Assembly (NCBI GenBank): GCA_964631935.1
Contig: CAZWAV010000001.1
Location: 291,595-355,594, forward strand
DNA: 64,000 nucleotides
Direction: 5' to 3'
DNA from: an uncultured Candidatus Saccharibacteria bacterium
Lineage (GTDB): Bacteria; Patescibacteriota; Minisyncoccia; Phycocordibacterales; UBA9973
Part shown: piece by piece, positions 101-42,402 of the stretch
Numbering within the stretch: the stretch's first letter is position 1
How the letters are laid out: every line of letters begins with the position of its first letter
The notes under the pieces: generated by a model
Databases searched by the model: none
Told to the model about the DNA's origin: nothing
The model's input: the letters and a program-made list of their open reading frames with translations, nothing else
Program-made: the position numbers and the translations under genes

Positions 101-787
101 CTATTCGTTTTTGAGATTTTTCCAAAGATTTATCTTTTTATGATCACCTGAAAGTAAAACTTTTGGTACTTTGTATTTTTTTTTATTAAAAATTAAAACT
201 TCAGGCCTAGTATAAACTTCACTAGAGGATATTCTTTCTTCTTCTCGAGAATCAAAATTACCAAGGACACCTTTGATCTGGCGAGATATAGAATCTACAA
301 GAACCATTGCTGGTATTTCTCCACCAGTAAGAACATAATCCCCTATGGAAAACTTTTTTGTTTTAAGTATTTTATCTACTCGAGCGTCTATGCCCTCATA
401 TCTACCACATATCATAATAATATCTGTATATTTTTTAGAAATATTTTTCGCAATTTTTGTATTAAATTTTTCAGCAGTTGGAACAAAATTAATAGTCAAG
501 GTTTTTGAATTTTTCTTTTTAGAAATTTTCTTTAACACTTGATCTACTGCTTTTATAATCGGTTCGGCCATCATAACCATACCAGGACCTCCAGCATAAG
601 GTCTCTCATCGACTTGAAGTGAGACATTGCCGTCAGGCCAAACTTTCTTATATTTTCCAGACACAAATTGTCTTGGATTTAAAAATGAAACGGAGATTTT
701 TTTCTCCTTTATCGCTCGGCCCAAAATAGACTCTTTTAGATAAGAATCAAACATCTCTGGAAATAAAGTAATGATATGAAAATTCAT
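101..787 (-). CDS. trmD: tRNA (guanine37-N1)-methyltransferase TrmD
   Basis: 228-aa ORF. N-terminal MNFHIITLFPEMF and ICGRYEGIDARV motifs are characteristic of the SPOUT-fold TrmD. It lies downstream of rpsP and the KH gene, as in the classical rpsP-rimM-trmD cluster. Confidence 0.9.
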   Translation of the reverse strand: MNFHIITLFPEMFDSYLKESILGRAIKEKKISVSFLNPRQFVSGKYKKVWPDGNVSLQVDERPYAGGPGMVMMAEPIIKAVDQVLKKISKKKNSKTLTINFVPTAEKFNTKIAKNISKKYTDIIMICGRYEGIDARVDKILKTKKFSIGDYVLTGGEIPAMVLVDSISRQIKGVLGNFDSREEERISSSEVYTRPEVLIFNKKKYKVPKVLLSGDHKKINLWKNLKNE

Positions 788-804
788 GTCGACATCATAA
801 CATA

Positions 805-840
805 AGAAAAGACCTCAGGCGAACACCTGAGGTCTTTTCA
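805..840 (-). terminator. GC-rich inverted repeat (gacctcagg...cctgaggtc) flanked by T/A runs between the KH-protein gene and trmD. It could be an intra-operon attenuator or terminator.
   Basis: Perfect 9-bp stem at 811-819 and 826-834, with a 6-nt loop and U-rich flanks on both strands. Confidence 0.35.
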
Positions 841-848
841 AATTTTTA

Positions 849-1190
849 TTATATTCCTTTTAAATCCTCAAGGGCTGCATCAACACTACGTGATGCTTCT
901 GCTCCTGACATCGGAGATTGTGCTTGTACATGCTCATGAGTACTTCCTTCTGGTTCATTGATTTTCAAATTCACGCGAGCGTTATTTTTCATACCAATAA
1001 CCCGAAGAAGTGTGCGGATTGCTTTTGCAGTATTACCTTGACGGCCAATTATTTTACCCATGTCGGCGCTATTTACAGTCATAGTAATAAGAACCCCCAT
1101 TTCATCTACTGTGCGATCAATTTTTACATCATCTGGATTATCAACTAATGCTTTAACAACGTATTCAAGAAATGCTTTATCGTCTGCCAT
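849..1190 (-). CDS. KH-domain RNA-binding protein (YlqC/UPF0109-like)
   Basis: 113 aa. The GKIIGRQGNTAKAIRTLL segment has the GXXG loop of a type-II KH domain. It occupies the position between rpsP and trmD where ylqC/rimM usually sit. Confidence 0.75.
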   Translation of the reverse strand: MADDKAFLEYVVKALVDNPDDVKIDRTVDEMGVLITMTVNSADMGKIIGRQGNTAKAIRTLLRVIGMKNNARVNLKINEPEGSTHEHVQAQSPMSGAEASRSVDAALEDLKGI

Positions 1191-1287
1191 ATTATAGTAT
1201 TCTCATATTATTCGTAAAGGAGTTCAGTGTATCGACTACAGCCTGACTCAAGAAGAATTATATCACACAGATCAAATCTTATGCAAT

Positions 1288-1317
1288 TTAAAATCCCCAC
1301 AAAATGTGGGGATTTTA
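1288..1317 (-). terminator. Hairpin immediately downstream of the rpsP stop (aaaatccccaca...tgtggggatttt)
   Basis: Perfect 12-bp palindrome arms at 1290-1301 and 1304-1315, followed by A/T runs. It sits between rpsP and the KH gene. Confidence 0.4.
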
Positions 1318-1319
1318 AA

Positions 1320-1625
1320 TTAAGCTTTTTTCAGTTCTTTACGAGCTTTAGTAGGAGATTTTTTAGAAAGAGAATTCTTTTTCTTACCTTCAATAATCTT
1401 CTGGTGAACAAGGAAATTATGAACGGTGTCAGAAGCCTGAGCACCATTATTCATCCAATAAGTTATTCGATCTTTCTTAAAAAGCACTTCTCCACTCTTT
1501 AAATTATATGAGCCAAGTATTTCTTTAAATTTACCACTCTTAGTTGAGTTTTTTGAATCTGTCAAAACAACACGGAAAGCCGAGTCATTCTTGCGACCTA
1601 TTCTTTGTAGTCGTATTTTTAACAT
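1320..1625 (-). CDS. rpsP: 30S ribosomal protein S16 (bS16)
   Basis: 101 aa. The N-terminus MLKIRLQRIGRKNDSAFRVVLTD is the canonical bS16 start. The protein is basic. Confidence 0.9.
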   Translation of the reverse strand: MLKIRLQRIGRKNDSAFRVVLTDSKNSTKSGKFKEILGSYNLKSGEVLFKKDRITYWMNNGAQASDTVHNFLVHQKIIEGKKKNSLSKKSPTKARKELKKA

Positions 1626-3669
1626 AGCGGTATCCTACCATAAAGCACTATATGAATCAAGAGCTCATATTTTATGCTATACTACCTTTGTGAAAAACAA
1701 ACAAATACAAGCAAATACTACCCATAATTCCAAAAAACCTTCTCGGGCCCCAGAAAAGCACACAAGCAGGTATGTAGAAGGAATAATACATATATCACAT
1801 AAAGGTATTGGGAAGGTTAGAATATTTAGAAGCGATGATACAGTGGAGATTGATCATAGTTTTCTTCATACAGCTTGTAATGGTGATACTGTGCGGGTTT
1901 TGTTGTACCCAAAACATAGAGATGGTGAACAGAGCGGTGAAGTTTCAGAAATTATAAGAAGATCAAAGATGGGATTCTCTGGTATTGTAGAGAAAGAAAA
2001 TGATACCTATTTTCTAATACCAAGTGATCTAAAAATGTATTCTGATATAGTTATTCCTTCTGATAAATTAAATGGAGCAAAAGTGGGACAAAAAGTTTTT
2101 GTGACTATAACAGAATGGAAGGATTCAAAAAAGGCTCCTGTCGGTGAAGTAGTAAAAGTTCTAGGTATGCCGATGGAACACAACGCTGAAATGGAGGCTA
2201 TTGCTCTTGAAAAAGGTTTCGACATGATCTTCCCTCCTTCTGTGGACACAGAAGCTAAAAAAATTGCAATCACGGGAATAACTAATAGTGATATTATTGG
2301 CCGTCGGGACATGAGAGAAACTACAACTTTTACTATTGATCCTGAAGATGCTAAAGATTTTGATGATGCATTATCTTTCAAGAAATTACCTAATGGTCAC
2401 TTCGAAATAGGAATACATATCGCCGATGTATCGCACTATGTAAGACCTGGTACAGCCCTTGACGACGAGGCTCGTAGACGAGGCACTTCTGTCTATCTTG
2501 TAGACCGCACAATACCCATGCTTCCAGAAGAACTCTCAAATGGACTCTGCAGTTTAAACCCAAATGTCGACAGACTTACTTTCTCATCAATATTTGAGAT
2601 TGATATAAAAGGCAATATACACAATGAATGGTTTGGAAGAACAGTGATTCACTCAGATCAAAGATTCAGCTATGAGGGCGCTCAAAAAATTCTCGACGAT
2701 AAACAAGGTGTCTTATACAACGAACTTTCAACTTTAAACAGTATCGCAAAAAAACTTTCAAAGAAACGATTCGATGAAGGAGCTATATCTCTAGAGCAAG
2801 ATGAAGTTAAATTTAAACTGGGCCCTGATGGCGTACCTCTTTCTGTCTACACAAAACAACATGACGACACGAATAAATTAATCGAGGAATTTATGCTAAT
2901 GGCAAATCGTCGCGTGGCTGAACACATGTCTCAAAAAAAAGATGGCAAGCAAGGCATCTTTCTCTATCGAATACACGATCTTCCAAATAAAGAAAAAATG
3001 AAGGATTTAGCAGAATTTTTAAAACGCCTTGGATATTCGATGAAACTAAAAGACGGTCTTATTCCTTCTGAAGAAATTAATATACTTGTAGGTAAGCTTG
3101 AACACAATCCCCTTCGTGACACTGTCCACACTGCCATTATAAGAACTATGGCAAAAGCTATTTACTCTACAAAAAATATTGGACATTACGGTCTTGGATT
3201 TAAATTCTACACCCACTTTACATCACCAATTCGTAGATATCCTGACGTAATCGTGCACAGACTACTCGCCTCTTTTCTAGAAGGCAAAACTATTCCAAAA
3301 GAAAAACTTTCTGAATATGAATCTATGAGCACTGAAGCATCAAATAGAGAAAAAGAAGCTGCGGAAGCCGAACGCTCATCAATAAAATACAAACAAGTAG
3401 AGTACATGGCTACACGTATTGGCGATATCTATGAAGGTATCATCACAGGAGTTACAGAATGGGGTCTCTATATAGAAGAACAAAAAACAAAATGTGAGGG
3501 CATGGTGCGTATGCGAGATTTAAAGGATGATTATTATACTTTCGACAAAAAATATATGAGCATAAAAGGTAGTAAAACTCATAAGAAATATACATTAGGA
3601 GATAAAGTGAAGTTCAAAGTTCAAGCAGTTGATAGAAATAAGAAGACAATTGATTACTCAATTATATAA
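1591..3669 (+). CDS. rnr: Ribonuclease R / RNase II-family 3'-5' exoribonuclease (start codon uncertain)
   Basis: 692-aa ORF with N-terminal cold-shock-like/OB region (GKVRIF...GDTVRVLL), an RNB catalytic domain (TIDPEDAKDFDDALS, HYGLGF..YTHFTSPIRRYPD) and a C-terminal S1 domain (GEVYEGIITGVTEWGLYIE). The first 35 nt overlap the divergent rpsP start, so the true start is probably a downstream or non-ATG codon. Confidence 0.85.
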   Translation: MRPILCSRIFNIAVSYHKALYESRAHILCYTTFVKNKQIQANTTHNSKKPSRAPEKHTSRYVEGIIHISHKGIGKVRIFRSDDTVEIDHSFLHTACNGDTVRVLLYPKHRDGEQSGEVSEIIRRSKMGFSGIVEKENDTYFLIPSDLKMYSDIVIPSDKLNGAKVGQKVFVTITEWKDSKKAPVGEVVKVLGMPMEHNAEMEAIALEKGFDMIFPPSVDTEAKKIAITGITNSDIIGRRDMRETTTFTIDPEDAKDFDDALSFKKLPNGHFEIGIHIADVSHYVRPGTALDDEARRRGTSVYLVDRTIPMLPEELSNGLCSLNPNVDRLTFSSIFEIDIKGNIHNEWFGRTVIHSDQRFSYEGAQKILDDKQGVLYNELSTLNSIAKKLSKKRFDEGAISLEQDEVKFKLGPDGVPLSVYTKQHDDTNKLIEEFMLMANRRVAEHMSQKKDGKQGIFLYRIHDLPNKEKMKDLAEFLKRLGYSMKLKDGLIPSEEINILVGKLEHNPLRDTVHTAIIRTMAKAIYSTKNIGHYGLGFKFYTHFTSPIRRYPDVIVHRLLASFLEGKTIPKEKLSEYESMSTEASNREKEAAEAERSSIKYKQVEYMATRIGDIYEGIITGVTEWGLYIEEQKTKCEGMVRMRDLKDDYYTFDKKYMSIKGSKTHKKYTLGDKVKFKVQAVDRNKKTIDYSII

Positions 3670-5285: not shown

Positions 5286-7565
5286 TTATTTAGCGTAAGC
5301 ACTAGCATCTTCTAAGTGTATAGAGAGGAGTTTCGATACTCCCGTAGAATCCATGGTGACACCATAAAGAACACTGGCTCTCGACATCGTTTCTCGATTA
5401 TGGGTTACGACAATGAGCTGTGAATATTTTGAAAGGTTCTCTAGCATATTCCCATATTTACGAGAGTTGGCTTCATCAAGAGCTGCATCGGTTTCATCAA
5501 GGACAAGGAATGGTGGAGGATTTACTTGTGAAATCGCAAAAAGTAGGGCGATAGAAGTGAGTGATCTTTCACCCCCTGATAACATATGCAGGTCTTTAAC
5601 TTTTTTATGTGGTAAGGTTACATTTATTTCTATTCCCCGCTCGAACCCTAATTCTTCTTCCTCTTTACCCTCTCCTTCGATAGATTCATCTTCATCATCG
5701 GTAACAGTTCGTCCCCTCTTATGCTCCATAACAACAGAAAGGAATGCTGATCCTCCCCCAAACATTAGAGCAAAAAAATCTTGAAATTGTTTATTTATCT
5801 TTAATACACCTTCTTTAAATTCTGTATCTAGTGTTTCTTTGAGTTCCTGAATTAGTAAACGCAATGATTCTATACTTTTATTTAAATCATTAATTTCATT
5901 ACCCAAGAATATATCACGCTCTTCTGTGTCTTTATATTCTTTTAGGACATCAGAGCCGTTGCTTGATCCTGCATCTTCTAGTTTAATTTTTATACGTTCA
6001 ATTTTACGACGGAGGTTATCTTGATCTTGACGAATAACCTCCCCAGAAACTTCAATATCTTTGTAGTCCAAAGCTTCTCTACCGATAAGTGCCCCTGCTT
6101 CAGCAAGCTCCATTTCAAATGCATTTTTAATAAGTGAAAGTTTTTCTTCTTCGAAATGCAATGAGTGCTGATTAGAAATTACTTCGTTTTTATCACGAAG
6201 AGCTTCATACAAAACTCTCTCGCTGGAACGTAAATTTATCTGCATTTCTTGCTCTCTTACACGCAAATTAGATATTTCGGAAAGAATAGATTTCTCATTT
6301 TCTGATATTTTTTGTAAATCAGCAATAATCTTATCTCGAACATCTTTCATCTCTTCATACTCTTTGTTTATCTTTGTATCTACACCAGATTCTTTATATT
6401 CTTTCTGTGAATCAAGAGCACTTATCTGCTCTCTCATGGTATGAAGAACTTGTGTAACTTCTTTTAGATCTTCAAGTCTAAGTGCTTCATCAATCTTTTC
6501 TTTAATATTTGATATGATGTTCCTCCATTCACTCTCAGGTATTACCTTTTCACTTTTTTCATTAGTACGAGAAAATTCTCTCTCGAGAGAATCAATAACT
6601 CCCTCGATACGCCCAAGCTTGCGGACAAGTTCATCTTTCATTGAACGCAGATCAAGTATTTTACTATCATATTCCTTTATCTTTCTTGTGTGTTCACTCT
6701 CGACTTCATCTTTTTGTGTATCCTTCTGAAGTTCACTAATACGCTCGTCGAGTAATCTCATTTGAATATCTAGGTCATGATGAACATCATGCAATCTTTT
6801 TGTTTCAATTTTTACATATGTGGATTCGGCAGAAAAATATATCTTATACAGATCTCGTAATTCTTCTCGCATTTCTCGAGCCTTCTCAACTATCTGAACT
6901 TGTTTTTTAAGAAATGCTAAGTGTGGAGCAATCTCGCGACGAGAAGCTTGTATTTCTTTCATATTGAGAATCGTTTTATCAAGCTTTCTTTCTGACTCAC
7001 GAATACGATACTGATATACTTTGAGTCCAAGAGCATCTTCTACCATAGCTCTGCGATCCTTATTTGAGGCATTGAGCACTCTATCAGCTTCACCTTGAGA
7101 TATAATGTGATGCCCAGAACTACCAATATTTACCGATGAGAGTAGGTCAATAATATCTTTTAATCTGACTTCTGTGCCATTAATACTATATTTATTTGCT
7201 CCATCAGCAAAAACTTCACGAGAAATAGAAATTTCATCATAATCAAGTGACACCCCAAGACCACTATTTGTAAATGAAAAAATCTTTTTACTATTATCAA
7301 AAGTAATGGTTACCATGGCACGATTTGAAGATGGAGTTAATTTTGATCCCTTAAAAATAAGATCCACTCCACCTTTTCCTCGAAGAGATTTCATTGATTG
7401 CTCACCCAATACAAAGCGTATAGATTCTACAATATTTGATTTACCAGAACCATTTGGACCCACGACAGCAGTAATGGGAGTCAAAAATGAAACGGTACTT
7501 TTCTTACCGAATGATTTAAACCCCACAAGCTCTATGGACTTTAGTGTCATCATTAGTCTAGCCAA
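5286..7565 (-). CDS. smc: SMC-family chromosome-segregation ATPase, unusually short and lacking a recognisable hinge
   Basis: 759 aa. N-terminal head with Walker A (VVGPNGSGKSNIVESIRFVLGEQS), a long Glu/Lys/Arg-rich coiled-coil middle, and a C-terminal head with the ABC signature and Walker B/D-loop (LSGGERSLTSIALLFAI..FLVLDETDAALD). It lies directly downstream of rnc and overlaps it, the conserved rnc-smc synteny. No Gly-rich hinge segment is seen. Confidence 0.8.
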   Translation of the reverse strand: MARLMMTLKSIELVGFKSFGKKSTVSFLTPITAVVGPNGSGKSNIVESIRFVLGEQSMKSLRGKGGVDLIFKGSKLTPSSNRAMVTITFDNSKKIFSFTNSGLGVSLDYDEISISREVFADGANKYSINGTEVRLKDIIDLLSSVNIGSSGHHIISQGEADRVLNASNKDRRAMVEDALGLKVYQYRIRESERKLDKTILNMKEIQASRREIAPHLAFLKKQVQIVEKAREMREELRDLYKIYFSAESTYVKIETKRLHDVHHDLDIQMRLLDERISELQKDTQKDEVESEHTRKIKEYDSKILDLRSMKDELVRKLGRIEGVIDSLEREFSRTNEKSEKVIPESEWRNIISNIKEKIDEALRLEDLKEVTQVLHTMREQISALDSQKEYKESGVDTKINKEYEEMKDVRDKIIADLQKISENEKSILSEISNLRVREQEMQINLRSSERVLYEALRDKNEVISNQHSLHFEEEKLSLIKNAFEMELAEAGALIGREALDYKDIEVSGEVIRQDQDNLRRKIERIKIKLEDAGSSNGSDVLKEYKDTEERDIFLGNEINDLNKSIESLRLLIQELKETLDTEFKEGVLKINKQFQDFFALMFGGGSAFLSVVMEHKRGRTVTDDEDESIEGEGKEEEELGFERGIEINVTLPHKKVKDLHMLSGGERSLTSIALLFAISQVNPPPFLVLDETDAALDEANSRKYGNMLENLSKYSQLIVVTHNRETMSRASVLYGVTMDSTGVSKLLSIHLEDASAYAK

Positions 7566-8248
7566 TCTTTAATTTCTAATGCGGATCGGGCAGCAGCTTG
7601 TTCAGCCTCTTGTTTGCTTTTGCCTTTTCCGGTCGCAATTTGTTCATCACCAAAGAATACTCCTATAGTAAAATGTTTGTCGTGGTCAGGCCCTGCTTCG
7701 CTTATAACTTTGTATACAGGAGTCACATTGAGATATTCTTGGGATTTCTCCTGAACAAGACTCTTTGCATCACGCCATAATTTCTTGGCAACAATTGTAT
7801 CTATCTTTCCAAAAAGAGTTCGAGATATGAAATCCCGAGCAACATCATACCCTTGATCAATATAGACAGCCCCTACATATGCTTCATAAGTATTTGCAAG
7901 TATGTAGCTTCGAGCACGGCCTGCGTCCTTTGCTTCACCTTTTGAAAGCAATAAATAATCATTCATGCCGATGGCTTGAGCGACTTCACCGATAATAACC
8001 GCATTCACTAGGGCTGAACGATAAGCGGTCAATTCTCCCTCATCGCGATCAGGATATTTGTTATATAAATAATCAGTGATAATAAGTTCAAGGACTGCAT
8101 CTCCTAAAAATTCTAAACGTTCATTGTGAGAAAGTTTTGAGCCAGTGCTTTCATTTATATAAGATCGGTGAATAAAAGCCTGCTCGAGAAGCTTTTTATC
8201 ATTGAAGACTATATTTGTAATTTTCTCAAATGCTGATAAATCAACCAT
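7553..8248 (-). CDS. rnc: Ribonuclease III
   Basis: 231 aa. The RNase III signature ERLEFLGDAVLEL is present, with a C-terminal dsRBD (KDHDKHFTIGV...GKGKSKQEAEQAAARSAL). Confidence 0.9.
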   Translation of the reverse strand: MVDLSAFEKITNIVFNDKKLLEQAFIHRSYINESTGSKLSHNERLEFLGDAVLELIITDYLYNKYPDRDEGELTAYRSALVNAVIIGEVAQAIGMNDYLLLSKGEAKDAGRARSYILANTYEAYVGAVYIDQGYDVARDFISRTLFGKIDTIVAKKLWRDAKSLVQEKSQEYLNVTPVYKVISEAGPDHDKHFTIGVFFGDEQIATGKGKSKQEAEQAAARSALEIKDWLD

Positions 8249-8252
8249 GTTA

Positions 8253-9158
8253 TTATTTATCTCTAGTTAATATTTCGACAGCTTTAGTCAGGAGCGGAAT
8301 CATGTTGTCGTACATTTTAAGTCCTGCAACTTCTTCCAATGGGAACCATTTCACATCATCAAGCCCCCCAGATTTGTTATGAAGCGAAAGTTCGCCATAA
8401 GGAGCTTCGGCCAAGAAAAATGTAACTTGCTTACGAATCTTTCCTTTTTCTGGATGTGAAGCTATGTACTCATTTTGTCCAAGAATTTGTTCTATTTTTA
8501 TATCAATACCAAGTTCTTCTTTTATTTCTCTTATAGCACCAGCTTCTACATCTTCTCCGTCTTCAACTCCACCCTTTGAAAGAGTCCAGTAGCCGAAAAC
8601 ATCATGAACAAAAGCAAAGTAAATAGTATCTTCATGTTTAGTGTAAATAACTGCGCCAGCCTTTTTCTCTATTGGAAACTTGGCAGGATCTGTCTCGAAA
8701 TGCTTTGCGGATTTTTTCTTACTTACATCATCTTTGCCAGGCTCGCCGATTTCTTTATAGACTCCACCGAGGACTCCGTTGATAAATTTACTAGAATTCT
8801 CTCCTCCGAAGCTTTTAGCAAGTTCGATAGACTCATTGATAGCAACTTTGGGCGGGACTTGTGTGCGGTCACCAAAAAGAAGCTCATATAATCCAATACG
8901 GAGAATATTACGATCGACAACTGAGATCTTATCAATAGGCCAATCTGGCGCAGCTTTTTCTATAATTTCATCTATAATCGCTTTCTTCTTCACAACGCCA
9001 AGAAAGAGCTCACTCATAAAAGAGGAATCATCAAGCCCTGGACCAAACTCCTCTATATTACGATCAAGCATGTCCTTTGGTTCTGTTTTCTCAACAGCAA
9101 AATCCCACTCGAAGAGTGTTTGAAGAACAATTGAACGTGAAAGGTGCCTGTTTGCCAT
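8253..9158 (-). CDS. nusB: NusB-like antitermination domain fused to a Nudix hydrolase domain
   Basis: 301 aa. Residues ~1-140 show NusB hallmarks (RHLSRSIVLQTLFEWDF, DRNILRIGLYELLF, AINESIELAKSFGGENSSKFINGVLG). The C-terminal half carries a perfect Nudix box GX5EX7REUXEEXGU (GGVEDGEDVEAGAIREIKEELGI). Confidence 0.75.
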   Translation of the reverse strand: MANRHLSRSIVLQTLFEWDFAVEKTEPKDMLDRNIEEFGPGLDDSSFMSELFLGVVKKKAIIDEIIEKAAPDWPIDKISVVDRNILRIGLYELLFGDRTQVPPKVAINESIELAKSFGGENSSKFINGVLGGVYKEIGEPGKDDVSKKKSAKHFETDPAKFPIEKKAGAVIYTKHEDTIYFAFVHDVFGYWTLSKGGVEDGEDVEAGAIREIKEELGIDIKIEQILGQNEYIASHPEKGKIRKQVTFFLAEAPYGELSLHNKSGGLDDVKWFPLEEVAGLKMYDNMIPLLTKAVEILTRDK

Positions 9159-9221
9159 AAAAATTGGTTTTATAGCTTATGCGCGTCTATTTGCAAATAT
9201 TTGCAAGGAGACGTCCCTAAG

Positions 9222-9440
9222 CTATTTGTTTTTAGCCTTCTTTTTAGCTTGTTTCTTTTCTACCTTCTTGACCACATCTACGACTTTGCGTCCTCGGTAA
9301 AATCCACAATGTGTGCAGACTACGTGAGTCTCTTTAGGTTTCTGACAGTTAGAGCAAGCTCCAAAAGTCTTCGCCACGAGAGCGTGGTGGCTTCGGCGGT
9401 TCCCAGTATGAGAACGTGTATGTCGCATTCGTATAACCAT
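9222..9440 (-). CDS. rpmF: 50S ribosomal protein L32 (bL32), zinc-ribbon type
   Basis: 72 aa. The RRSHHAL motif and a Cys4 zinc ribbon (CSNC...CTHC) are present, with a Lys-rich tail. Confidence 0.8.
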   Translation of the reverse strand: MVIRMRHTRSHTGNRRSHHALVAKTFGACSNCQKPKETHVVCTHCGFYRGRKVVDVVKKVEKKQAKKKAKNK

Positions 9441-9477
9441 TTAGATAGTATAGCTATTTTTGAATAAAATGCAAATA

Positions 9478-9513
9478 AAAGCCCCATTTGCTTTAAGCAA
9501 ACGGGGTTTTATG
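9478..9513. terminator. Imperfect hairpin (gccccatttgc...gcaaacggggt) with T-runs in the divergent rpmF/thrS intergenic region
   Basis: 10-11 bp stem with one G-U pair and U-rich flanks on both strands. Its function is unclear: it could terminate an upstream unit or act as a leader element. Confidence 0.3.
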
Positions 9514-9654
9514 TATTTATATTTTTCCTTGTGGGTTAGCAGATGTGGCAAGGCCATTTATTAATCTACCATTGTGTACATAATACCATATATTTATTAT
9601 ATTGTCAATAATAATACTTCTTTTAAAATAAGGCTTTTATGCTATTATGAAAAG

Positions 9655-11403
9655 ATGGAAAATAATGAACATTTGGCACATATTCGCCACTCACTCGCCC
9701 ACTTACTAGGTGCATCTGTTATGGAACTCTACCCAGGATCTAAGCTAACGCTTGGTCCTGCCATAGATAATGGTTTCTATTACGACATAGATGTAGCGGG
9801 AAAAATAACCGATAGCGACCTAGAAAAGATCGAGACTAAAATGCGTGAACTTCTAAAGACTTGGAATGGCTTTGAGAAAAAAGTTACAACAAAGAAAGAT
9901 GCCGATCAAATATTTGCTGGTAATGAATATAAAGAAGAGTTGATAAAAGGAATAGTAGAGAAGGGTGAAGAGATAACACTCTATACTTCAGGAAATTTTA
10001 CTGATCTATGTCGTGGTGGTCACGTAGAGAGCCCAGTCAAAGATATTAAACCAGATTCATTCAAGCTTGATCGAGTGGCTGGCGCATATTGGCGAGGAAG
10101 TGAAGAAAATAAAATGCTTACTCGTGTTTATGGTCTCGCATTTGAAACTAAAAAAGACTTAGAGGATTATATTGCATTGCAAGAAGAAGCAAAAAAACGC
10201 GACCATAGAAAGCTTGGGGCTGAAATGGAAATATTCTCTTTCTCCGACTACGTTGGGCCAGGACTTCCGCTTTGGTTACCAAATGGTGCAGCAATTACCG
10301 AAGAATTAGAAAAACTAGCAAAAGAAACTGAATTCCTTGGAGGATACAAACAAGTTCGTACTCCTCATATTGCCAAGGAGTCTATGTATGTAACTTCTGG
10401 CCACCTTCCCTACTACGAAGAATCAATGTACCCTCCGATGGAATACGAAGGTGGTAAGTATTATTTAAAAGCCATGAATTGCCCGCATCACCACCAGATA
10501 TTTGCAGCTGGAGCACGAAGTTACCGTGATTTACCTCTTAGACTTGCTGAATATGGGACTGTATATCGCCATGAAAAATCTGGAGAACTTTTTGGTCTTA
10601 TGCGAGTACGATCACTGTCTATGAACGACGCACATATATATTGTACCGAGGATCAATTCGCCGATGAATTCCGTGCAGTGAATGATATGTACTTAAAATA
10701 TTTTAAAATTTTCGGTATTGATAAGTACGTCATGCGATTCTCTACTCATGACCCAGAGAAATTGGGAGAAAAATATGTAGATGATGCAAAACTTTGGAAA
10801 AAAACAGAAGATATGGTTCGCAATGTTTTAATTGAATCAAAAATCCCATACATCGAAGTCCCTAACGAAGCAGCTTTCTACGGTCCAAAAATCGACGTAC
10901 AGGTATGGAGCGCAATTGGTCGTGAATTTACTCTTGCAACAAATCAAGTAGACTTTGCCGTACCAGCACGATTCGGACTTACCTATGCGTCATCTGAAGG
11001 TAAAGCAGAGACACCCCTTTGTATTCATCGTGCACCTCTTGGTACCCATGAGAGATTTACAGGATTCCTTATTGAACACTATGCAGGAATATTTCCAACA
11101 TGGCTCTCACCTGTCCAAGCATCTATTATCCCTGTCCGAGAAGAACATGCAGATGAAGCAGAGAAAGTCTTCACTGCGCTTCATAATGAATTCATCCGTG
11201 TAGAAAAAATTGGCGGTAATGATTCATTAGGAAAAAGAATACACCAGGCTAAAAAAATGAATACTCCATATGTAATAATCTTGGGAGATAAAGAAAAAGA
11301 ATCCGGAATGCTAACAATAGAAAAGCGTGATGGAACAAAAGTTCAAATGACACTAGAAGACTTCACTACTCACATAAAACAAGAAATTAAAAACCGCTCG
11401 TAA
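9655..11403 (+). CDS. thrS: Threonyl-tRNA synthetase lacking the N-terminal TGS domain
   Basis: Starts at internal Met (MENNEHLAHIRHSLAHLLG, the HxxxH editing-domain motif). Class II motifs are present (HRKLG, RVRSLSMNDAHIY) plus a C-terminal anticodon-binding domain. The 27 codons upstream in the track ORF look non-coding. Confidence 0.85.
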   Translation: MENNEHLAHIRHSLAHLLGASVMELYPGSKLTLGPAIDNGFYYDIDVAGKITDSDLEKIETKMRELLKTWNGFEKKVTTKKDADQIFAGNEYKEELIKGIVEKGEEITLYTSGNFTDLCRGGHVESPVKDIKPDSFKLDRVAGAYWRGSEENKMLTRVYGLAFETKKDLEDYIALQEEAKKRDHRKLGAEMEIFSFSDYVGPGLPLWLPNGAAITEELEKLAKETEFLGGYKQVRTPHIAKESMYVTSGHLPYYEESMYPPMEYEGGKYYLKAMNCPHHHQIFAAGARSYRDLPLRLAEYGTVYRHEKSGELFGLMRVRSLSMNDAHIYCTEDQFADEFRAVNDMYLKYFKIFGIDKYVMRFSTHDPEKLGEKYVDDAKLWKKTEDMVRNVLIESKIPYIEVPNEAAFYGPKIDVQVWSAIGREFTLATNQVDFAVPARFGLTYASSEGKAETPLCIHRAPLGTHERFTGFLIEHYAGIFPTWLSPVQASIIPVREEHADEAEKVFTALHNEFIRVEKIGGNDSLGKRIHQAKKMNTPYVIILGDKEKESGMLTIEKRDGTKVQMTLEDFTTHIKQEIKNRS

Positions 11404-21816: not shown

Positions 21817-24800
21817 TTATAGATATTTTCTGAAAATACTGAGACCAAAAGGTTCTGAAAATACGAGCATCCTTTTTATTTTATATAAAAATCCTATATC
21901 ACCACCAGAACCTCCGCCGCCTCCGCCTCCGCCAGTAGTAGGACAATTGCTATTAAACACCACAGAAGGAACAGTAGTATAGTTTGACCCACCATTATCT
22001 ACTGTCACGCTTGATACTGCGTCACCGGTCAAAACTGCTGTGCCTAAAGCACCTGACCCTCCGCCTCCACAGAATAATACCGTTGGAACAGATGTATAAC
22101 CACTACCACCAGAATTTATAGTTACACTCTGTACAATATTTGAAGAGACTACTGCTGTAGCGATTGCTGTAGTAGCTCCACCTCCACCAGAACCTCCGCC
22201 ACCGCCACCGCCTTGATCTCCATCTGGAGTAGCTGAAGATTCTATATTTCCACCACCACCACTTTTAGTGATAGTAATGAAAGACCAACACACGCCATTA
22301 TTACCATAATCATATATATTAGTACTCGCTCCTACAGTATTACCACCACTACATCCAGAATCTTTTACTTTTAAATAAGATATGGAGCTGGAGCCTGACA
22401 GTGTCATCAACCATTGAGAAGTCGGGGTGTCAGAATTTATTGAAATAGGATTTCCTTCAATTCCAGTCAAGGTTAATGTGTTTGCAAAAGTATAAGTATT
22501 ACCAGCTTTAAACTGCAAAGTTGAACCAGCCGTGGTGTTTGTTAGATTATAAAAAGTAGTATTTGAACTGCCTAAAATATTTGCAGTTAATGTAGAGTTA
22601 GTTGGTACAAAAGTTACCGTACCATTACTGTGTGTAAATGTGCCGCTATTACTAAAATCTCCATTAATGGTTAGACTTGTTGGTGCTACAAAAGTACCAT
22701 CTGAAATAGTTAAGTTTCCACCAATTGTCGTTACGCCAGTTAGGGTCAGGGTCCCGAGGCCAGCCTTAGTAAGTCCGCCAGCTGAGCCGACAGTACCAGC
22801 GATACTTACACTATTTCCATTTGTATCAATTGTGCCATTTCCAGTGAGTGTAACTGCACGAGTAGAAAGAGAGGTGATCGTTCCTGATGCCTGCAGAGTA
22901 CCACCGTTGAAAATTAGGGTATTAGTAGAAGTTCCATCACCAAGTGCAGCTGTAGCGTTGGCGACAATTGTTCCTCCAAGTATCATAGTAGGTCTACTGT
23001 AAGTGTTGGCTCCAGAGAGCGTCAGTGTGCCCGCCCCATCCTTAGTGAGGTTACCACTGGTAGTACTTATGATACCGGTGACCGATGTACTTCCAGCACC
23101 ACCAAAGATAGCGTTGAATGTATTTCCAGACATTGTTGGAAATGTTAGTGTTCCAGAATCAGAATTAATACGGACATTTGTTGTACCGAGTGTAACGTTT
23201 GCACTAATTGTATTCGAGTCAGCAACATTTCTAATCGCACCAGTATTATTAACACCAGTACCATTAGCTGTTATAAGTTTTGTGCTTGGTAAAGTAATAT
23301 TATTTTGTAATTCTAGTGTCGCCCCACCAGAAATAGTCGTAGTCAGTGAAGTTCCAGAAGCACCCAATGCGTTACTATGTTGAAGATTTAAATAGCCGGC
23401 GTTTAAAGCAATAGAGGTGCTCGTAAAACTATTGTCACCCGAGAGAATAACCCGACCAGCGGTATTTTTCGCCATTCCACCAGCTAACGCACTCCCTAGT
23501 ACTGCACTAATCGTCCCTTTTTCAAGAATGAATTGTTGTGTCGATGTAAGTGTTGCCGCTCCGCCAGTACTTACAATTGAGCCATCAATTAATGTAACCG
23601 TCGAAATATTTGTTTCATTAAATCCTTTTAAATCCAAGGTTCCACCAGCCACGCTTACAGTTGGCGTAGAGAGTGCATCAGCTATACCGTACGCAAGTGT
23701 CCCCTCGTTAATGCGCACTCCACCGGAAGCACCTGTGTTAGCGGCAGTGAGTGTAAGGGTACCCGCACCATATTTAGTTAACACTATACCAGCAGTACCC
23801 ATATTACCAGAGATAGTTGTCGGACCAGATCCGCCAACCCAAAAAGATGAAGCCCCAGAAACAGCGCCTGTAATTGTCAGTACCCCAGCTCCATTATTCA
23901 CAATACGGGAACTTGTTTGAGAAAGAGTAGCAAACGTACTACCTGTGGAAGAGTTACTAATCAATGCTCCCCCATTCAAAAGACCACTACCAGCGAGCGT
24001 CAAAGGCTCCCATGTCGAAGCTCCTCCAACACTATAAGTAGATAGGTCGAGCACTGCCCCAGCAGAAACAGTAACACCTCCAGCAATTGTACCAAAAGGG
24101 GTGTTCGTAGCGCCGCCGTTTGCTCCAAGCTGGAGTGTCCCTGTACTCACCGTCATTGCGCCAGTCATGGTGTTTTGCCCAGCCAAAATAAGAGTCCCCG
24201 AACCTTCTTTTGTGAGAGTACCAGAACCTGACCACACACTGTTTGTAGATTGAGTAAAATTACCCACCGCCACCACGGTAAGTGCGAAGTTCCCCGAAAT
24301 ATTACCAGTCAACGTCGTCATTCCAGTACCATGGTTAGCAATACGTGAAGCAGCACCTAGGGTGACAGCTCCAGTATATGATATTGAATTATTAGAACTA
24401 TTTATAAATGCACCTGTGTTTGCAATACCACTTCCGTTAATCGTGATGGGCTCAGCAGTACCAAGAGTAAAGCCATTCAAATCCAACATCGCACTACTTG
24501 CAACAGTGGTCGCTCCAGCAGTTGTGCCGAGTGGTGTGTTGGTTGCTCCACCGGCTGCGCCCAATCTTAGTAATCCGAAACTAACAGTGGTTACTCCAGT
24601 ATAGTTACTATCTCCCCAGATCTCCCATGTCCCTGCATCATTTTTAACAAGTGATCCCGCAGTTGATGTATTGACTTGAGTTTTAAGGACGCCATTTCCA
24701 AGACCTCTCAGTGTCAAAGCAAATCCAGTCCCTGTCATGCTTCCCGTGTTTGAAAGAGTCATAGTGCCATAGTTAGCAGTGATGGTCGCAGCCGCACCAA

Positions 24801-41299: not shown

Positions 41300-41703
41300 A
41301 ATTTTAGTTTAATATTATCTCTTATTTTTTCTAACTCTTGATCAGTAAGAATTTCAATATTCTCTTTGTTAAAAGATGATTTCGGAGCAATATCATCACC
41401 ATGATAAACTGGTACAATATGGATATGAGTATGACTCACATCAAAACCAGCAATCCAGAACTCAATCTTTTTTGGTAAATATATGTTATTGAGTATAGTA
41501 GCAAACTTTTGAGCAATAGAACTTATATATTCGAATATTTTTTTATTCACTTTCCAAAAATCAGGTTCATGAATTTTGGGAATAACCAGTAAATGTCCAG
41601 GATTAATTGGGCGTCTATCGGGAATCACAAAACATTTTTCATCTTCATAAATGATTCGATGAGCTATTTCATGGTCTTCAATTTTACAGAATATGCAATC
41701 CAT
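41296..41703 (-). CDS. HIT-family (histidine triad) nucleotide hydrolase
   Basis: 135 aa. Histidine triad HTHIHIVP and a CFVIPD upstream motif are present. It is inserted between pheS and pheT with 4-nt overlaps. Confidence 0.8.
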   Translation of the reverse strand: MDCIFCKIEDHEIAHRIIYEDEKCFVIPDRRPINPGHLLVIPKIHEPDFWKVNKKIFEYISSIAQKFATILNNIYLPKKIEFWIAGFDVSHTHIHIVPVYHGDDIAPKSSFNKENIEILTDQELEKIRDNIKLKL

Positions 41704-41706
41704 AAA

Positions 41707-42402
41707 TTAAAACTGATTCAATCTTAAATCTCCTTGGTAAAATAAGCGCACATCAGGAATATTCCATCGAATCATGGCGATACGATCGAGCCCTCCACCG
41801 AAGGCAAATCCTTGAACTTTTTCTGGATCAAGCCCGGCATTACGCAAAACATTCGGATGTATCATTCCCCCTCCCATCATTTCGAGCCACTTGCCATTAA
41901 ACTTAGCATGGACTTCTACCGACGGCTCCGTAAAAGGAAAGAAGCTTGGACGAAATTCTATTTCCACATCTTCTCCAAGCACTTTTTTATAAAATTCCAC
42001 GAGCACACCTTTCATATGTGAAAGATTTACATTCTCTCCAACCATACATCCATCGATCTGGAAGAATTGCATCTCGTGAGTAATATCAGTCGCTTCGTTT
42101 CTGAAAACTTTCCCGATAGAAATAGATGCGAGTTCTTTTATATTTTCTTTGGCCACTCGCTCAAGTGTTCGAGCTGTGACATTTGTCGCATGGGTACGGA
42201 GCACTTGCTCAGGATTTCCTTTCACATAAAATGTATCCTGCATATCACGAGCCGGGTGATCTTTCGGCACATTGAGTGCATCGAAGTTGTACCAGAGAGT
42301 TTCAAGCTCTGGACCTGTCGCAATTTCAAATCCAAGCTTTGAAAACAGCGAATATGCCTCTTCTTGAAGAATTGTAAGCGGATGTTGGCTGCCTTTAGAC
42401 AT
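41707..42402 (-). CDS. pheS: Phenylalanyl-tRNA synthetase alpha subunit (catalytic core only)
   Basis: 231 aa. Class II motifs (FRPSFFPFTEPSVEV, GGGLDRIAM) are present. The N-terminal coiled-coil extension is absent. Confidence 0.85.
   Translation of the reverse strand: MSKGSQHPLTILQEEAYSLFSKLGFEIATGPELETLWYNFDALNVPKDHPARDMQDTFYVKGNPEQVLRTHATNVTARTLERVAKENIKELASISIGKVFRNEATDITHEMQFFQIDGCMVGENVNLSHMKGVLVEFYKKVLGEDVEIEFRPSFFPFTEPSVEVHAKFNGKWLEMMGGGMIHPNVLRNAGLDPEKVQGFAFGGGLDRIAMIRWNIPDVRLFYQGDLRLNQF

What the first reader, a model, noticed from the sequence alone, without database searches (positions are those of the whole stretch)
8253..9158. NusB-Nudix hydrolase fusion upstream of rnc-smc
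A complete NusB-like domain is joined, through a Lys-rich linker, to a Nudix domain with a perfect Nudix box (GGVEDGEDVEAGAIREIKEELGI). NusB is normally a stand-alone ~140-aa antitermination factor. A fusion to a nucleotide-pyrophosphatase suggests coupling of rRNA transcription antitermination to (d)NDP-X or alarmone or cap hydrolysis. Alternatively the NusB fold may have been repurposed.
Basis: seen in the sequence. Interest (0 to 1): 0.5.

Follow-up and report, generated by a model that had tools for sequence, protein, structure and literature searches.

The report
NusB fused to Ap4A-hydrolase-type Nudix domain
The gene is real: in one group of tiny-genome (Patescibacteria/CPR) bacteria the universal transcription factor NusB carries a flexibly tethered nucleotide-polyphosphate-binding Nudix domain and always sits next to RNase III. 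Across the family the ligand-binding residues are kept better than the catalytic ones.

Summary
Confirmed. Window 8253..9158 (-) is one uninterrupted 301-aa ORF. It has a NusB domain (aa 1-137; TIGR01951 equivalog 122.6 bits, cut-off 88), a disordered Lys-rich linker of about 24 residues, and a Nudix domain (aa 162-301) with a perfect Nudix box.

It is not an assembly artefact. The same fusion is present in 59 of 60 related species-level genomes (Paceibacteria, Nomurabacteria, Parcubacteria) and in thousands of metagenome proteins. The order rpmF - nusB::nudix - rnc - smc is always kept.

The NusB half is the housekeeping NusB. BoxA-contact residues are invariant, and Nudix-less relatives occupy the same rpmF-x-rnc slot.

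The Nudix half belongs to the asymmetric Ap4A/ApnA-hydrolase type (Aquifex aq_158, Ndx1, NUDT2). It is not RppH, MutT or an ADP-ribose pyrophosphatase.

New twist: among 55 divergent family representatives only 11 keep all three catalytic glutamates. The adenine-stacking tyrosines and phosphate-binding lysines are kept in about 75-95% (45/55 to 52/55 for the tyrosines and K195). In the window's own clade the core REUxEE is intact in 51 of 59 genomes.

Best reading: a nucleotide-polyphosphate, 5'-triphosphate or Np4-cap reader/eraser tethered to the BoxA-binding helix of NusB. The substrate is inferred, not shown.

The fusion is databased as plain "NusB", and I found no paper describing it. Verdict: new variant of a known kind, moderate interest.

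The parts
8253..9158 (-). nusB::nudix fusion ORF, 301 aa (stop codon 8253..8255)
   Evidence: ORF; domains; identical protein P0001 in public data
8748..9158 (-). NusB domain, aa 1-137 (seven helices; alpha7 = aa 120-137)
   Evidence: Pfam NusB 117.5 bits. TIGR01951 122.6 bits against cut-off 88.35. AF2 pLDDT about 90. Foldseek to Aquifex NusB in the NusB-NusE-RNA complex, TM 0.84-0.86, rmsd about 2 A. F125, E92 and G128 invariant; D82, R4 and R8 at least 90% in 55 family representatives
8676..8747 (-). Flexible linker, aa 138-161: GEPGKDDV - Lys-rich variable core - ETDPAKF
   Evidence: pLDDT 36-58 and pTM 0.51, so no fixed interdomain orientation. Length 21-26 aa in 59 genomes with conserved end motifs. 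GEPGK is also present in the Nudix-less NusB of L060
8256..8675 (-). Nudix domain, aa 162-301, Ap4A/ApnA-hydrolase type
   Evidence: Pfam NUDIX 64.7 bits. phmmer against PDB: Ndx1, aq_158 Ap4A hydrolase, CT771, C. elegans and human Ap4A hydrolase. Foldseek best hit 3i7u, TM 0.89, rmsd 2.2 A. dN/dS about 0.09
8505..8573 (-). Nudix box GGVEDGEDVEAGAIREIKEELGI (aa 196-218; catalytic E211, E214, E215)
   Evidence: Read from the sequence. Core REUxEE intact in 51 of 59 related genomes, but all three Glu kept in only 11 of 55 family representatives
7553..8248 (-). rnc (RNase III), 4 nt downstream of the fusion gene
   Evidence: TIGR02191 246.9 bits against cut-off 166. Adjacent to the fusion in all 59 loci and in the four divergent members looked up
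5286..7565 (-). Short SMC-like ATPase (759 aa), overlaps the rnc stop
   Evidence: Pfam SMC_N. TIGR02168 519 bits, below cut-off 567, no hinge hit. Conserved downstream of rnc in 58 loci
9222..9440 (-). rpmF (L32), 63 nt upstream of the fusion gene
   Evidence: Pfam Ribosomal_L32p. Upstream of the fusion in the related loci and of the stand-alone NusB genes in L060 and L062
9447..9506 (-). Terminator-like hairpin (9506..9482) followed by a promoter-like TTTGCA-17-TATACT (9475..9447) just upstream of rpmF
   Evidence: Consensus scan. A similar hairpin followed by TTTGCAT lies 30-42 nt upstream of rpmF in about 27 of 57 related loci. Consensus matches only; function not shown

Best explanation
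This is the organism's genuine nusB gene. In a Paceibacteria/Nomurabacteria-type lineage of Patescibacteria it has acquired a C-terminal Nudix domain of the asymmetric Ap4A/ApnA-hydrolase type.

SHOWN: The two domains are separately folded. They are joined by a disordered, Lys-rich tether of about 24 residues that starts right after helix alpha7, the helix that carries the BoxA-RNA contacts. The gene is packed with rnc (RNase III) in a conserved rpmF-nusB::nudix-rnc-smc array.

INFERRED: The NusB half works as usual, as a heterodimer with S10 that binds BoxA in nascent rRNA-leader RNA on the elongating polymerase. The tethered Nudix module recognises an adenine-nucleotide-polyphosphate moiety. 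The recognising residues would be the Tyr231/Tyr283 stacking pair and Lys195/Lys243 on the phosphates. The most likely ligand is the 5'-triphosphate or Np4N cap of the BoxA-bearing transcript held next to it; free Np4N is the other candidate.

In this lineage the Nudix box is intact, so the domain probably hydrolyses its ligand. That would leave a 5'-monophosphate and license decay or processing of the leader released by RNase III. In most other lineages of the family the catalytic glutamates are lost but the binding residues stay. There the module would act only as a 5'-end or nucleotide reader.
For: Real and conserved. Purifying selection acts on both halves (dN/dS about 0.08 and 0.09).

NusB orthology: the equivalog cut-off is passed. 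The structure matches Aquifex NusB from the NusB-NusE-RNA complex. F125 (= Ec/Aa F122, which stacks on BoxA U8) is 55/55 and D82 (= E81) is 52/55 (residue roles from PMC3177189). Nudix-less NusB sits in the same rpmF-x-rnc slot.

Nudix type: the best sequence and structure matches are Ap4A/Ap6A hydrolases. Alignment to C. elegans Ap4A hydrolase (sequence verified against 1kt9) maps W32, K36, Y76, K83 and Y121 onto W191, K195, Y231, K243 and Y283. These residues are invariant or nearly so in 59 genomes and kept in 41-52 of 55 family representatives.

Catalytic core REUxEE is intact in 51/59 genomes of the window's clade.

The tether starts at alpha7, which PMC3177189 describes as the most conserved part of the BoxA-binding site.

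Adjacency to rnc is universal, including in the divergent members looked up.

Precedent for this enzyme class acting on RNA 5' ends: NUDT2 trims PPP-RNA (PMC8616924). NpnN serve as bacterial RNA caps that Nudix RppH and ApaH remove (PMC7044304, PMC8833179).
Against: No biochemical data exist, and the substrate is inferred only from homology.

The Nudix half is acidic (pI 5.0) and shows no obvious RNA-body-binding surface.

RppH family models score far below their cut-offs (16-28 bits against 116-241).

AlphaFold gives no defined interdomain geometry (pTM 0.51), so physical coupling is not demonstrated.

Gene fusions can arise from mere adjacency.

No rRNA operon or BoxA is present in the window, so I could not check the distance between the 5' end and BoxA.

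Even inside the window's clade 8/59 genomes have a substituted catalytic Glu. Hydrolysis is therefore dispensable at least in some lineages.
Confidence: 0.4

Rival explanations
1. Housekeeping dinucleoside-polyphosphate (Ap4A/ApnA) hydrolase fused to NusB simply because the genes were neighbours in a shrinking genome. The two halves would act independently, and the fusion would only ensure co-expression.
For: Ap4A-hydrolase-type sequence and fold. Long disordered linker and no predicted interdomain contact. Compact genome with overlapping genes.
Against: If only the enzymatic activity mattered, lineages that lost the catalytic glutamates (44 of 55 representatives lack at least one) should also lose the domain. 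Instead the domain, its length and its ligand-binding residues persist. Only one relative among the 60 loci found (L060) lacks the domain. No genome was found with nusB and this nudix as separate adjacent genes; the apparent stand-alone copy I checked was a contig-edge fragment.
Confidence: 0.25
2. Ligand sensor rather than enzyme. The Nudix domain would bind an alarmone-like nucleotide (Ap4A or a related NpnN, or possibly (p)ppGpp) and modulate NusB availability or activity. This is analogous to the degenerate Nudix domain of NrtR regulators. Hydrolysis, where retained, would only reset the signal.
For: Binding residues are better conserved than catalytic ones, both family-wide and within the close clade. 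The NrtR Nudix domain is among the structural matches (ranks 15 and 17). Degenerate members no longer match Pfam NUDIX but are still maintained next to rnc.
Against: In the window's own clade REUxEE is intact in 51/59 genomes and the box is perfect here, which points to catalysis in this protein. A 24-residue disordered tether offers no obvious route for allostery. No ligand is known.
Confidence: 0.2
3. NTP-pool sanitiser (MutT1-like 8-oxo-GTPase) placed on the rRNA transcription complex to protect rRNA from oxidised nucleotides.
For: The Nudix domain of M. smegmatis MutT1 / M. tuberculosis Rv2985 is among the best structural matches. The best NCBIfam Nudix hit is the MutT1 model.
Against: That hit scores 37.6 bits against a cut-off of 475. 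Rv2985 is itself deposited as a diadenosine polyphosphatase (9cxx). A diffusible substrate gains little from tethering. The MutT (PRK10776) model scores only 21.5 bits against a cut-off of 148.
Confidence: 0.07
4. Sequencing or assembly artefact joining two separate genes.
For: None found.
Against: The same uninterrupted ORF occurs in 59 independent species-level genomes and thousands of metagenome proteins, with linker length conserved at 21-26 aa.
Confidence: 0.01

Closest known systems
NusB (E. coli, Aquifex aeolicus, Thermotoga maritima), antitermination factor of the rrn and lambda-N complexes
   Same: The N-terminal 137 aa pass the TIGR01951 equivalog cut-off. They have the same all-helical fold (TM 0.84-0.86) and conserved BoxA-contact residues (F125 = F122, D82 = E81, N-terminal Arg residues).
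   Different: Canonical NusB is a stand-alone protein of about 140 aa. This one carries a 24-aa tether and a 140-aa Nudix domain on the end of alpha7. It is encoded next to rnc and rpmF.
Asymmetric Ap4A/ApnA Nudix hydrolases (Aquifex aq_158 3i7u, T. thermophilus Ndx1, Chlamydia CT771, C. elegans NDX-4, human NUDT2, Nudix domain of mycobacterial MutT1/Rv2985)
   Same: These are the best sequence and structure matches (TM up to 0.89, 26-30% identity). Shared features are the W-x-x-[PS]-K-G motif before the box, the Tyr pair and the Lys that bind adenine and phosphate in the C. elegans enzyme, and an intact Nudix box in this protein.
   Different: Those enzymes are single-domain, or in MutT1 fused to a histidine-phosphatase domain. 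None is fused to a transcription factor. No NCBIfam equivalog is passed. Most relatives of the fusion have lost catalytic glutamates.
RppH (bacterial RNA 5'-pyrophosphohydrolase and Np4-decapping Nudix enzyme)
   Same: This is the proposed mode of action: a Nudix enzyme acting on the 5'-PPP or Np4 cap of RNA to license decay. E. coli RppH also hydrolyses NpnN.
   Different: Not a family member: RppH models score 16-28 bits against cut-offs of 116-241. RppH is free-standing and finds RNA through its own surface, not through a fused RNA-binding factor.
RsmB/Sun 16S rRNA m5C967 methyltransferase (NusB-like N-terminal domain fused to an enzyme)
   Same: It is a precedent for a NusB-fold RNA-binding domain fused N-terminally to an RNA-directed enzyme domain.
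   Different: The RsmB N-domain is a diverged paralogue, not NusB. Here RsmB models score at most 60 bits against cut-offs of at least 269, while the NusB equivalog is passed. The enzyme partner is a Nudix domain, not a methyltransferase.
NrtR-type regulators (Nudix domain with a degenerate box used as an ADP-ribose sensor, fused to a DNA-binding domain)
   Same: A Nudix domain fused to a nucleic-acid-binding or regulatory domain. Catalytic residues are eroded while ligand binding is retained, which is the pattern seen in most family members here.
   Different: The partner domain differs (winged helix against NusB), as do the ligand class and the target (DNA against RNA/RNAP). The window's own protein still has a perfect box.
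Dcp2 (eukaryotic mRNA decapping enzyme: helical regulatory domain, hinge, Nudix domain)
   Same: Architectural analogy: a helical N-domain, a flexible hinge and a Nudix domain acting on RNA 5' ends. Two-domain Foldseek alignments were returned.
   Different: The alignments are poor (rmsd 11-13 A, 13-16% identity). The helical domains are unrelated. This is analogy, not homology.

Membership tests
NusB (TIGR01951 / PF01029) | Sequence score above the curated equivalog cut-off | tested here: met
   TIGR01951 122.6 bits against 88.35. Pfam NusB 117.5 bits against 23.1.
NusB (TIGR01951 / PF01029) | Seven-helix NusB fold | tested here: met
   AF2 helices at 4-20, 27-38, 45-57, 59-69, 80-95, 103-118 and 120-137 with pLDDT about 90. 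Foldseek to 3r2d_B and 4eya_B, TM 0.84-0.86, rmsd 1.9-2.1 A.
NusB (TIGR01951 / PF01029) | BoxA-contacting residues (F122 stacking on U8, E81, basic N-terminus; PMC3177189) | tested here: met
   F125 55/55, D82 52/55 (a conservative E-to-D change, as in T. maritima), R4 50/55 and R8 53/55 in family representatives. The mapping comes from the alignment.
NusB (TIGR01951 / PF01029) | Heterodimer with S10 (NusE) and BoxA RNA binding; antitermination activity | not testable with these tools
   No S10 gene, rRNA leader or BoxA in the window. Needs biochemistry.
NusB (TIGR01951 / PF01029) | Only nusB in the genome (orthologue, not paralogue) | tested here: inconclusive
   No second NusB among the window's ORFs. 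Nudix-less NusB occupies the same rpmF-x-rnc slot in relatives. Whole genomes could not be scanned.
Nudix hydrolase superfamily (PF00293) | Nudix box GX5EX7REUXEEXGU | tested here: met
   aa 196-218 fit every specified position. Family-wide, all three catalytic Glu are kept in only 11/55 representatives.
Nudix hydrolase superfamily (PF00293) | Alpha/beta/alpha Nudix fold | tested here: met
   AF2 pLDDT about 90 for aa 163-298. 552 PDB matches at E<=0.001; most of the 50 listed are Nudix proteins, and NusB chains also appear.
Nudix hydrolase superfamily (PF00293) | Mg2+/Mn2+-dependent pyrophosphohydrolase activity | not testable with these tools
   Requires an enzyme assay.
Asymmetric Ap4A/ApnA hydrolase type (NUDT2 / NDX-4 / Ndx1 / aq_158) | W-x-x-P-K-G motif immediately before the box (phosphate-binding Lys36 of the C. 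elegans enzyme) | tested here: met
   YWTLSKGG: W191 and K195 are invariant in 59 genomes and 51/55 family-wide. Pro is replaced by Ser in this clade. Alignments.
Asymmetric Ap4A/ApnA hydrolase type (NUDT2 / NDX-4 / Ndx1 / aq_158) | Adenine-stacking Tyr pair (Ce Y76, Y121) and Lys83; the residue roles are recalled from the C. elegans structure and mutagenesis literature, not re-read here | tested here: met
   Y231, Y283 and K243 align to them (Ce sequence verified against 1kt9). Y231 and Y283 are 59/59 and K243 is 55/59 (+4 R). Family-wide counts are 45, 52 and 41 of 55.
Asymmetric Ap4A/ApnA hydrolase type (NUDT2 / NDX-4 / Ndx1 / aq_158) | Closest solved structures are Ap4A/Ap6A hydrolases | tested here: met
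   3i7u TM 0.89, 1vc8 TM 0.84, 4mpo, 1ktg, 3u53. The phmmer ranking agrees.
Asymmetric Ap4A/ApnA hydrolase type (NUDT2 / NDX-4 / Ndx1 / aq_158) | Hydrolysis of Ap4A to ATP + AMP | not testable with these tools
   Requires an assay. No curated NCBIfam equivalog is passed.
RppH (RNA pyrophosphohydrolase) | Score above the RppH equivalog cut-offs | tested here: not met
   NF001936 28.5 against 118; NF001938 23.6 against 116; NF001934 18.2 against 241; NF001937 16.4 against 139. It may work like RppH but is not a member.
RsmB-type NusB-like domain fusion | RsmB model score and a C-terminal SAM methyltransferase domain | tested here: not met
   PRK14902 59.8 against 319; TIGR00563 47 against 269. 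No methyltransferase domain.

The most novel reading that the evidence does not exclude
The rRNA antitermination complex of these ultra-small bacteria carries its own built-in 5'-end reader/eraser. An Ap4A-hydrolase-derived Nudix module tethered to NusB's BoxA-binding helix would grip the 5'-triphosphate or Np4 cap of the nascent rRNA leader and, where still catalytic, decap it. That would couple transcription antitermination, 5'-end status (and so alarmone-derived capping) and RNase III processing in one machine. In most lineages the module would have become a catalytically dead 5'-end or alarmone-binding domain.
Probability: 0.25. Interest if true: 0.75.

Novelty: new variant of a known kind. 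Interest (0 to 1): 0.5.

Why it matters
NusB is a universal bacterial transcription factor that is normally a single small domain. A lineage-wide, selection-maintained fusion to an Ap4A-hydrolase-type module would be a natural 'Rosetta stone'. It would link rRNA transcription antitermination to nucleotide-polyphosphate or RNA 5'-end chemistry, a field that has only recently opened (Np4A caps, RppH/ApaH/YqeK decapping).

The family also offers a ready-made natural experiment. Closely related proteins come with intact or eroded catalytic residues but share conserved binding residues. That should make it easy to separate reading from erasing biochemically.

It also adds to the picture of how CPR/Patescibacteria, with minimal genomes, consolidate RNA-processing functions: rpmF-nusB::nudix-rnc, with RNase R, KhpA and trmD nearby.

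If the fusion is only a co-expression accident, the finding is a minor annotation correction, since the databases call the protein just 'NusB'.

Tried and rejected
1. Assembly or frameshift artefact: rejected.

2. 'Repurposed NusB fold' / RsmB-like paralogue: rejected on equivalog score, BoxA residues and synteny.

3. Stand-alone copies of this Nudix gene as evidence for a split ancestor. Several proteins of about 140-170 aa appeared in the representative search. The one I looked up (P0213) lies at a contig edge, with NusB C-terminal remnants and a stop just upstream. The others begin at a Leu/Phe codon of the conserved '[FL]PIEKK' and are probably truncated calls. I did not use them as evidence.

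4. AlphaFold-database fold search for taxonomic breadth: the library was unavailable.

5. Cluster look-up to name the organisms of divergent members: it returned no taxon names.

6. Rfam scan for an rRNA operon or known leader in the window: only one tRNA was found, so BoxA and its distance from the 5' end could not be examined. By eye, no convincing BoxA-like sequence is present in the rpmF leader.

7. Literature: four searches found no paper describing a NusB-Nudix fusion. The library lacks most subscription journals, so absence is not proof.

8. The terminator-like hairpin upstream of rpmF as a NusB-dependent attenuator. It recurs in related loci, but always directly followed by a -35-like TTTGCA. 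It therefore looks like an ordinary terminator-promoter junction, and I did not pursue it.

9. dN/dS values are rough because dS is near saturation (1.2-1.8). I used them only to show purifying selection.
Full report
OBSERVATION

The ORF list and the raw sequence show one uninterrupted ORF at 8253..9158 on the minus strand (301 aa, ATG start).
- Pfam finds NusB at aa 7-135 (117.5 bits) and NUDIX at aa 189-282 (64.7 bits).
- NCBIfam scores the protein at 122.6 bits on the nusB equivalog TIGR01951, against a cut-off of 88.35.
- The motif GGVEDGEDVEAGAIREIKEELGI (aa 196-218, nt 8505..8573) satisfies every specified position of the Nudix box GX5EX7REUXEEXGU.
- The stretch between the domains, GEPGKDDVSKKKSAKHFETDPAKF, is Lys-rich.

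rpmF (9222..9440) lies 63 nt upstream.

IS THE FUSION REAL?

Yes.
- The identical protein is on record from three contigs (P0001). The 120 best hits of a protein search are all about 300 aa, 78-100% identical, and carry both Pfam domains. They come from Patescibacteria, Paceibacterota and Nomurabacteria MAGs and are named only 'NusB'.
- A scan of one genome per species returned 60 loci. Of these, 59 encode the full-length fusion, among them Parcubacteria RAAC4_OD1_1 and Nomurabacteria GW2011_GWD2_36_14.
- tblastn with the window's neighbours shows the order rpmF - nusB::nudix - rnc - smc in essentially all loci, usually with thrS divergent upstream.
- Linker length is held at 21-26 residues. 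Its end motifs are conserved (GEPGKDDV...ETDPAKF) and its core is variable and Lys-rich.
- Rough pairwise dN/dS is 0.075 for the NusB half, 0.13 for the linker and 0.086 for the Nudix half. dS is near saturation, so this is only qualitative evidence of purifying selection.

An exhaustive search of 50%-identity cluster representatives gives 164 hits at E<=1e-30. About 55 of them are full-length fusion clusters, reaching down to about 33% identity. The family is therefore considerably broader than the window's genus-level clade. Four divergent members that I looked up (P0229, P0160, P0152, P0190) are each followed directly by rnc. rpmF precedes the fusion where upstream sequence is informative, but not in P0229's locus.

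THE NusB HALF

It is the housekeeping NusB, not a repurposed paralogue.
- It passes the equivalog cut-off, while RsmB models fail (at most 60 bits against at least 269).
- AlphaFold2 predicts the seven-helix fold at pLDDT about 90.
- It superposes on Aquifex NusB taken from NusB-NusE-RNA complexes (TM 0.84-0.86, rmsd about 2 A).

According to PMC3177189, BoxA binding runs from the NusB N-terminus to the NusB-NusE interface and is most conserved along helix alpha7. F122 stacks on U8, and E81 reads its base. Using the alignment:
- F122 corresponds to F125, which is 55/55 in family representatives.
- E81 corresponds to D82 (52/55).
- The basic N-terminus corresponds to R4 (50/55) and R8 (53/55).

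One relative (L060) has a 166-aa NusB that ends inside the same GEPGKDDVSKKK linker, with no Nudix domain. It still sits between rpmF and rnc. A stand-alone 144-aa NusB that is 58% identical to the query (P0189) sits in the same rpmF-nusB-rnc arrangement. Whole genomes could not be scanned for a second nusB, and none is present in the window.

THE NUDIX HALF

By sequence, the nearest solved proteins are T. thermophilus Ndx1 (Ap6A hydrolase), Aquifex Ap4A hydrolase aq_158, Chlamydia CT771, and C. elegans and human Ap4A hydrolase.

By structure, the best match is aq_158 (3i7u: TM 0.89, rmsd 2.2 A). Next come the Nudix domain of mycobacterial MutT1/Rv2985 (deposited as a diadenosine polyphosphatase), Ndx1, CT771, NDX-4 and NUDT2.

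The family-typical W-x-x-P-K-G motif before the box is present as YWTLSKG.

I recalled the C. elegans Ap4A hydrolase sequence from memory and verified it as identical to 1kt9. Aligning it to the family maps:
- W32 to W191
- K36 to K195
- Y76 to Y231
- K79/K81/K83 to K238/K240/K243
- W109 to W271
- Y121 to Y283

From my recollection of the C. elegans structural and mutagenesis work (not re-read here), Y76/Y121 sandwich the adenine, and K36/K83 bind phosphates.

RppH, MutT, NudC, ADP-ribose pyrophosphatase and other NCBIfam models are all far below their cut-offs. The domain is therefore an Ap4A/ApnA-hydrolase-type Nudix. It is not a member of any curated equivalog.

ARCHITECTURE

Both domains are confidently folded. 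Residues 140-153 have pLDDT 36, and pTM is 0.51, so the model gives no fixed mutual orientation. The tether begins immediately after alpha7. The Nudix module is thus leashed, within a few nanometres, to the part of NusB that holds BoxA RNA.

THE UNEXPECTED PART: CATALYTIC EROSION WITH BINDING-SITE RETENTION

Among the 55 divergent full-length representatives, the catalytic positions are poorly kept:
- E211 (the Glu of 'RE'): 14/55
- E214: 30/55
- E215: 40/55
- R210: 32/55
- All three Glu: 11/55; two: 14/55; one: 23/55; none: 7/55

Members with intact boxes are scattered over a neighbour-joining tree, which fits repeated independent loss. The tree is only a rough NJ tree. Some eroded members no longer match Pfam NUDIX at all.

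The putative ligand-binding positions are kept much better:
- Y283: 52/55
- W191: 51/55
- K195: 51/55 (+2 R)
- Y231: 45/55 (+5 F)
- K243: 41/55 (+7 R)
- Y/F247: 52/55
- W271: 51/55

The same asymmetry is visible at short range. In the 59 genomes of the window's clade, F188, W191, K195, Y231, W271 and Y283 are invariant. Meanwhile 8 genomes carry a substitution in a catalytic Glu, such as REIKKE, RAIKEE or REIKQE. At 61-68% identity a KRIKEE subclade appears.

For the window's own protein and its closest relatives the core is intact: REIKEE in nearly all of the 120 closest proteins and REUxEE in 51/59 genomes. Catalysis is therefore plausible in this protein. What selection preserves across the whole family, however, is the nucleotide-polyphosphate binding site and its attachment to NusB.

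MECHANISM

Shown:
- a conserved fusion of bona fide NusB with an Ap4A-hydrolase-type Nudix module on a flexible tether attached at alpha7
- conserved adjacency to RNase III, with tight packing suggesting co-transcription
- binding residues conserved more strongly than catalytic residues

Inferred: NusB-S10 binds BoxA on nascent leader RNA. The tethered module binds an adenine-nucleotide-polyphosphate moiety nearby. That is most plausibly the 5'-PPP end or an Np4N cap of that same transcript, or else free Np4N. In box-intact lineages the module hydrolyses it.

Precedents:
- Human NUDT2, a member of this enzyme class, trims PPP-RNA to P-RNA (PMC8616924).
- NpnN act as RNA caps in bacteria and are removed by Nudix RppH and by ApaH (PMC7044304, PMC8833179).
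- Firmicutes use YqeK for this (PMC13010140).

A 5'-monophosphate would license decay of the leader fragment released by RNase III, whose gene is the immediate neighbour. I put about 0.4 on this layered explanation; the weak link is the RNA 5'-end substrate.

Rivals:
- An independent housekeeping Ap4A hydrolase fused by adjacency (0.25). The retention of eroded domains disfavours it.
- An NrtR-like ligand sensor that modulates NusB (0.2). The erosion pattern favours it; the intact box here and the floppy linker disfavour it.
- MutT1-like NTP sanitation (0.07).
- Artefact (about 0.01).

Against the RNA model: the Nudix half is acidic (pI 5.0), there is no RppH family membership, and no BoxA or rRNA leader was available to check geometry.

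COMPARISON AND NOVELTY

The parts are known (NusB; an Ap4A-type Nudix). The combination is already in public databases but is annotated only as 'NusB'. Four literature searches found no description of it, with the caveat that the library is incomplete.

Conceptual relatives are:
- RsmB: a NusB-like domain plus an enzyme
- NrtR: a degenerate Nudix sensor plus a nucleic-acid-binding domain
- Dcp2: a helical domain, a hinge and a Nudix decapping domain
- RppH: a functional analogue

I rate it a new variant of a known kind, with interest 0.5. It is a real, lineage-wide and unstudied elaboration of a universal transcription factor, and its evolutionary pattern is informative. Its function, however, is still inferred.

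SURROUNDINGS

The window looks like a typical CPR/Patescibacteria genome at 38% GC. It encodes:
- trmD, a KhpA-type KH protein, rpsP and RNase R
- cell-wall enzymes
- the rpmF-nusB::nudix-rnc-smc array
- thrS and gyrB
- two giant surface-type proteins
- pheS-HIT-pheT
- an AddA/UvrD-type helicase-nuclease
- secDF and others

No other Nudix or NusB gene is present in the window.

Noticed in passing
window 41296..41703 (-): A 135-aa HIT/HinT-like protein (Pfam HIT 58 bits; also DcpS_C) is encoded between pheS (41707..42402) and pheT (39461..41299). HIT enzymes act on nucleotide-polyphosphate and adenylate substrates, and aminoacyl-tRNA synthetases make Ap4A. This could be a second NpnN-handling enzyme in the same genome.
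   Followed up: partly
window 5286..7565 (-); also L001-L059: The SMC downstream of rnc is only 759 aa. TIGR02168 matches in two stretches (the heads) at 519 bits, below the 567 cut-off, and no SMC hinge domain is detected. The same short form of about 750-765 aa is found in the related genomes. It may be a hinge-less or short-coiled-coil SMC.
   Followed up: partly
window 9482..9506 (-) and 9447..9475 (-): A strong terminator-like hairpin (-19.8 kcal/mol plus a T-run) lies 33 nt upstream of the rpmF ATG, directly followed by TTTGCA-17-TATACT. In about 27 of 57 related loci a hairpin with an unrelated stem sequence sits at the same distance before a TTTGCAT motif. It looks like a conserved terminator-promoter junction, and it implies a very short or leaderless rpmF mRNA.
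   Followed up: partly
window ~9190..9205 (rpmF-nusB spacer): A perfect 16-bp palindrome TTGCAAATATTTGCAA overlaps a -35-like TTGCAA, then 16 nt, then TATAAA, which ends 13 nt before the nusB ATG. It may be an internal promoter or operator for nusB::nudix-rnc-smc. Conservation was not checked.
   Followed up: no
L060 477..977 (CAYVZN010000028.1): A related genome has rpmF - NusB (166 aa, ending within the same GEPGKDDVSKKK linker, no Nudix domain) - rnc - ftsH. This is either a natural Nudix-less variant or a secondary loss.
   Followed up: yes
proteins P0237, P0248, P0258, P0235, P0161, P0146: Closely related NusB proteins carry other C-terminal extensions. Some have K/E-rich tails of about 200 aa with no Pfam match. 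One has an unassigned 115-aa tail. One has a tail resembling the C-terminal part of a cytidylyltransferase. The NusB C-terminus appears to be a hot spot for additions in this lineage.
   Followed up: partly
protein P0261 (142 aa): A stand-alone Nudix protein whose N-terminal strands look like a generic MutT-type Nudix (…PGKWQNVGGKIEPGE…). From the box onward it is nearly identical to the fusion family. It may be a recombinant, a chimeric assembly, or a clue to the donor gene.
   Followed up: no
window 21817..30894 (-) and 32684..39217 (-): Two giant ORFs: 3025 aa (six PATR autotransporter-type repeats, otherwise unassigned) and 2177 aa (no Pfam match). They are probably surface proteins of the kind common in CPR genomes.
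   Followed up: no
window 9574..11403 (+): The mechanically listed thrS ORF starts at a GTG that overlaps the divergent promoter region. The conserved protein probably starts about 27 codons later (MENNEHLAHIRHS…).
   Followed up: no
window 101..3669: There is an RNA-processing-rich neighbourhood near the operon: trmD, a KhpA-type KH-domain protein, rpsP (S16) and RNase R (equivalog 681 bits). In one divergent relative (L066) RNase R directly follows smc.
   Followed up: partly
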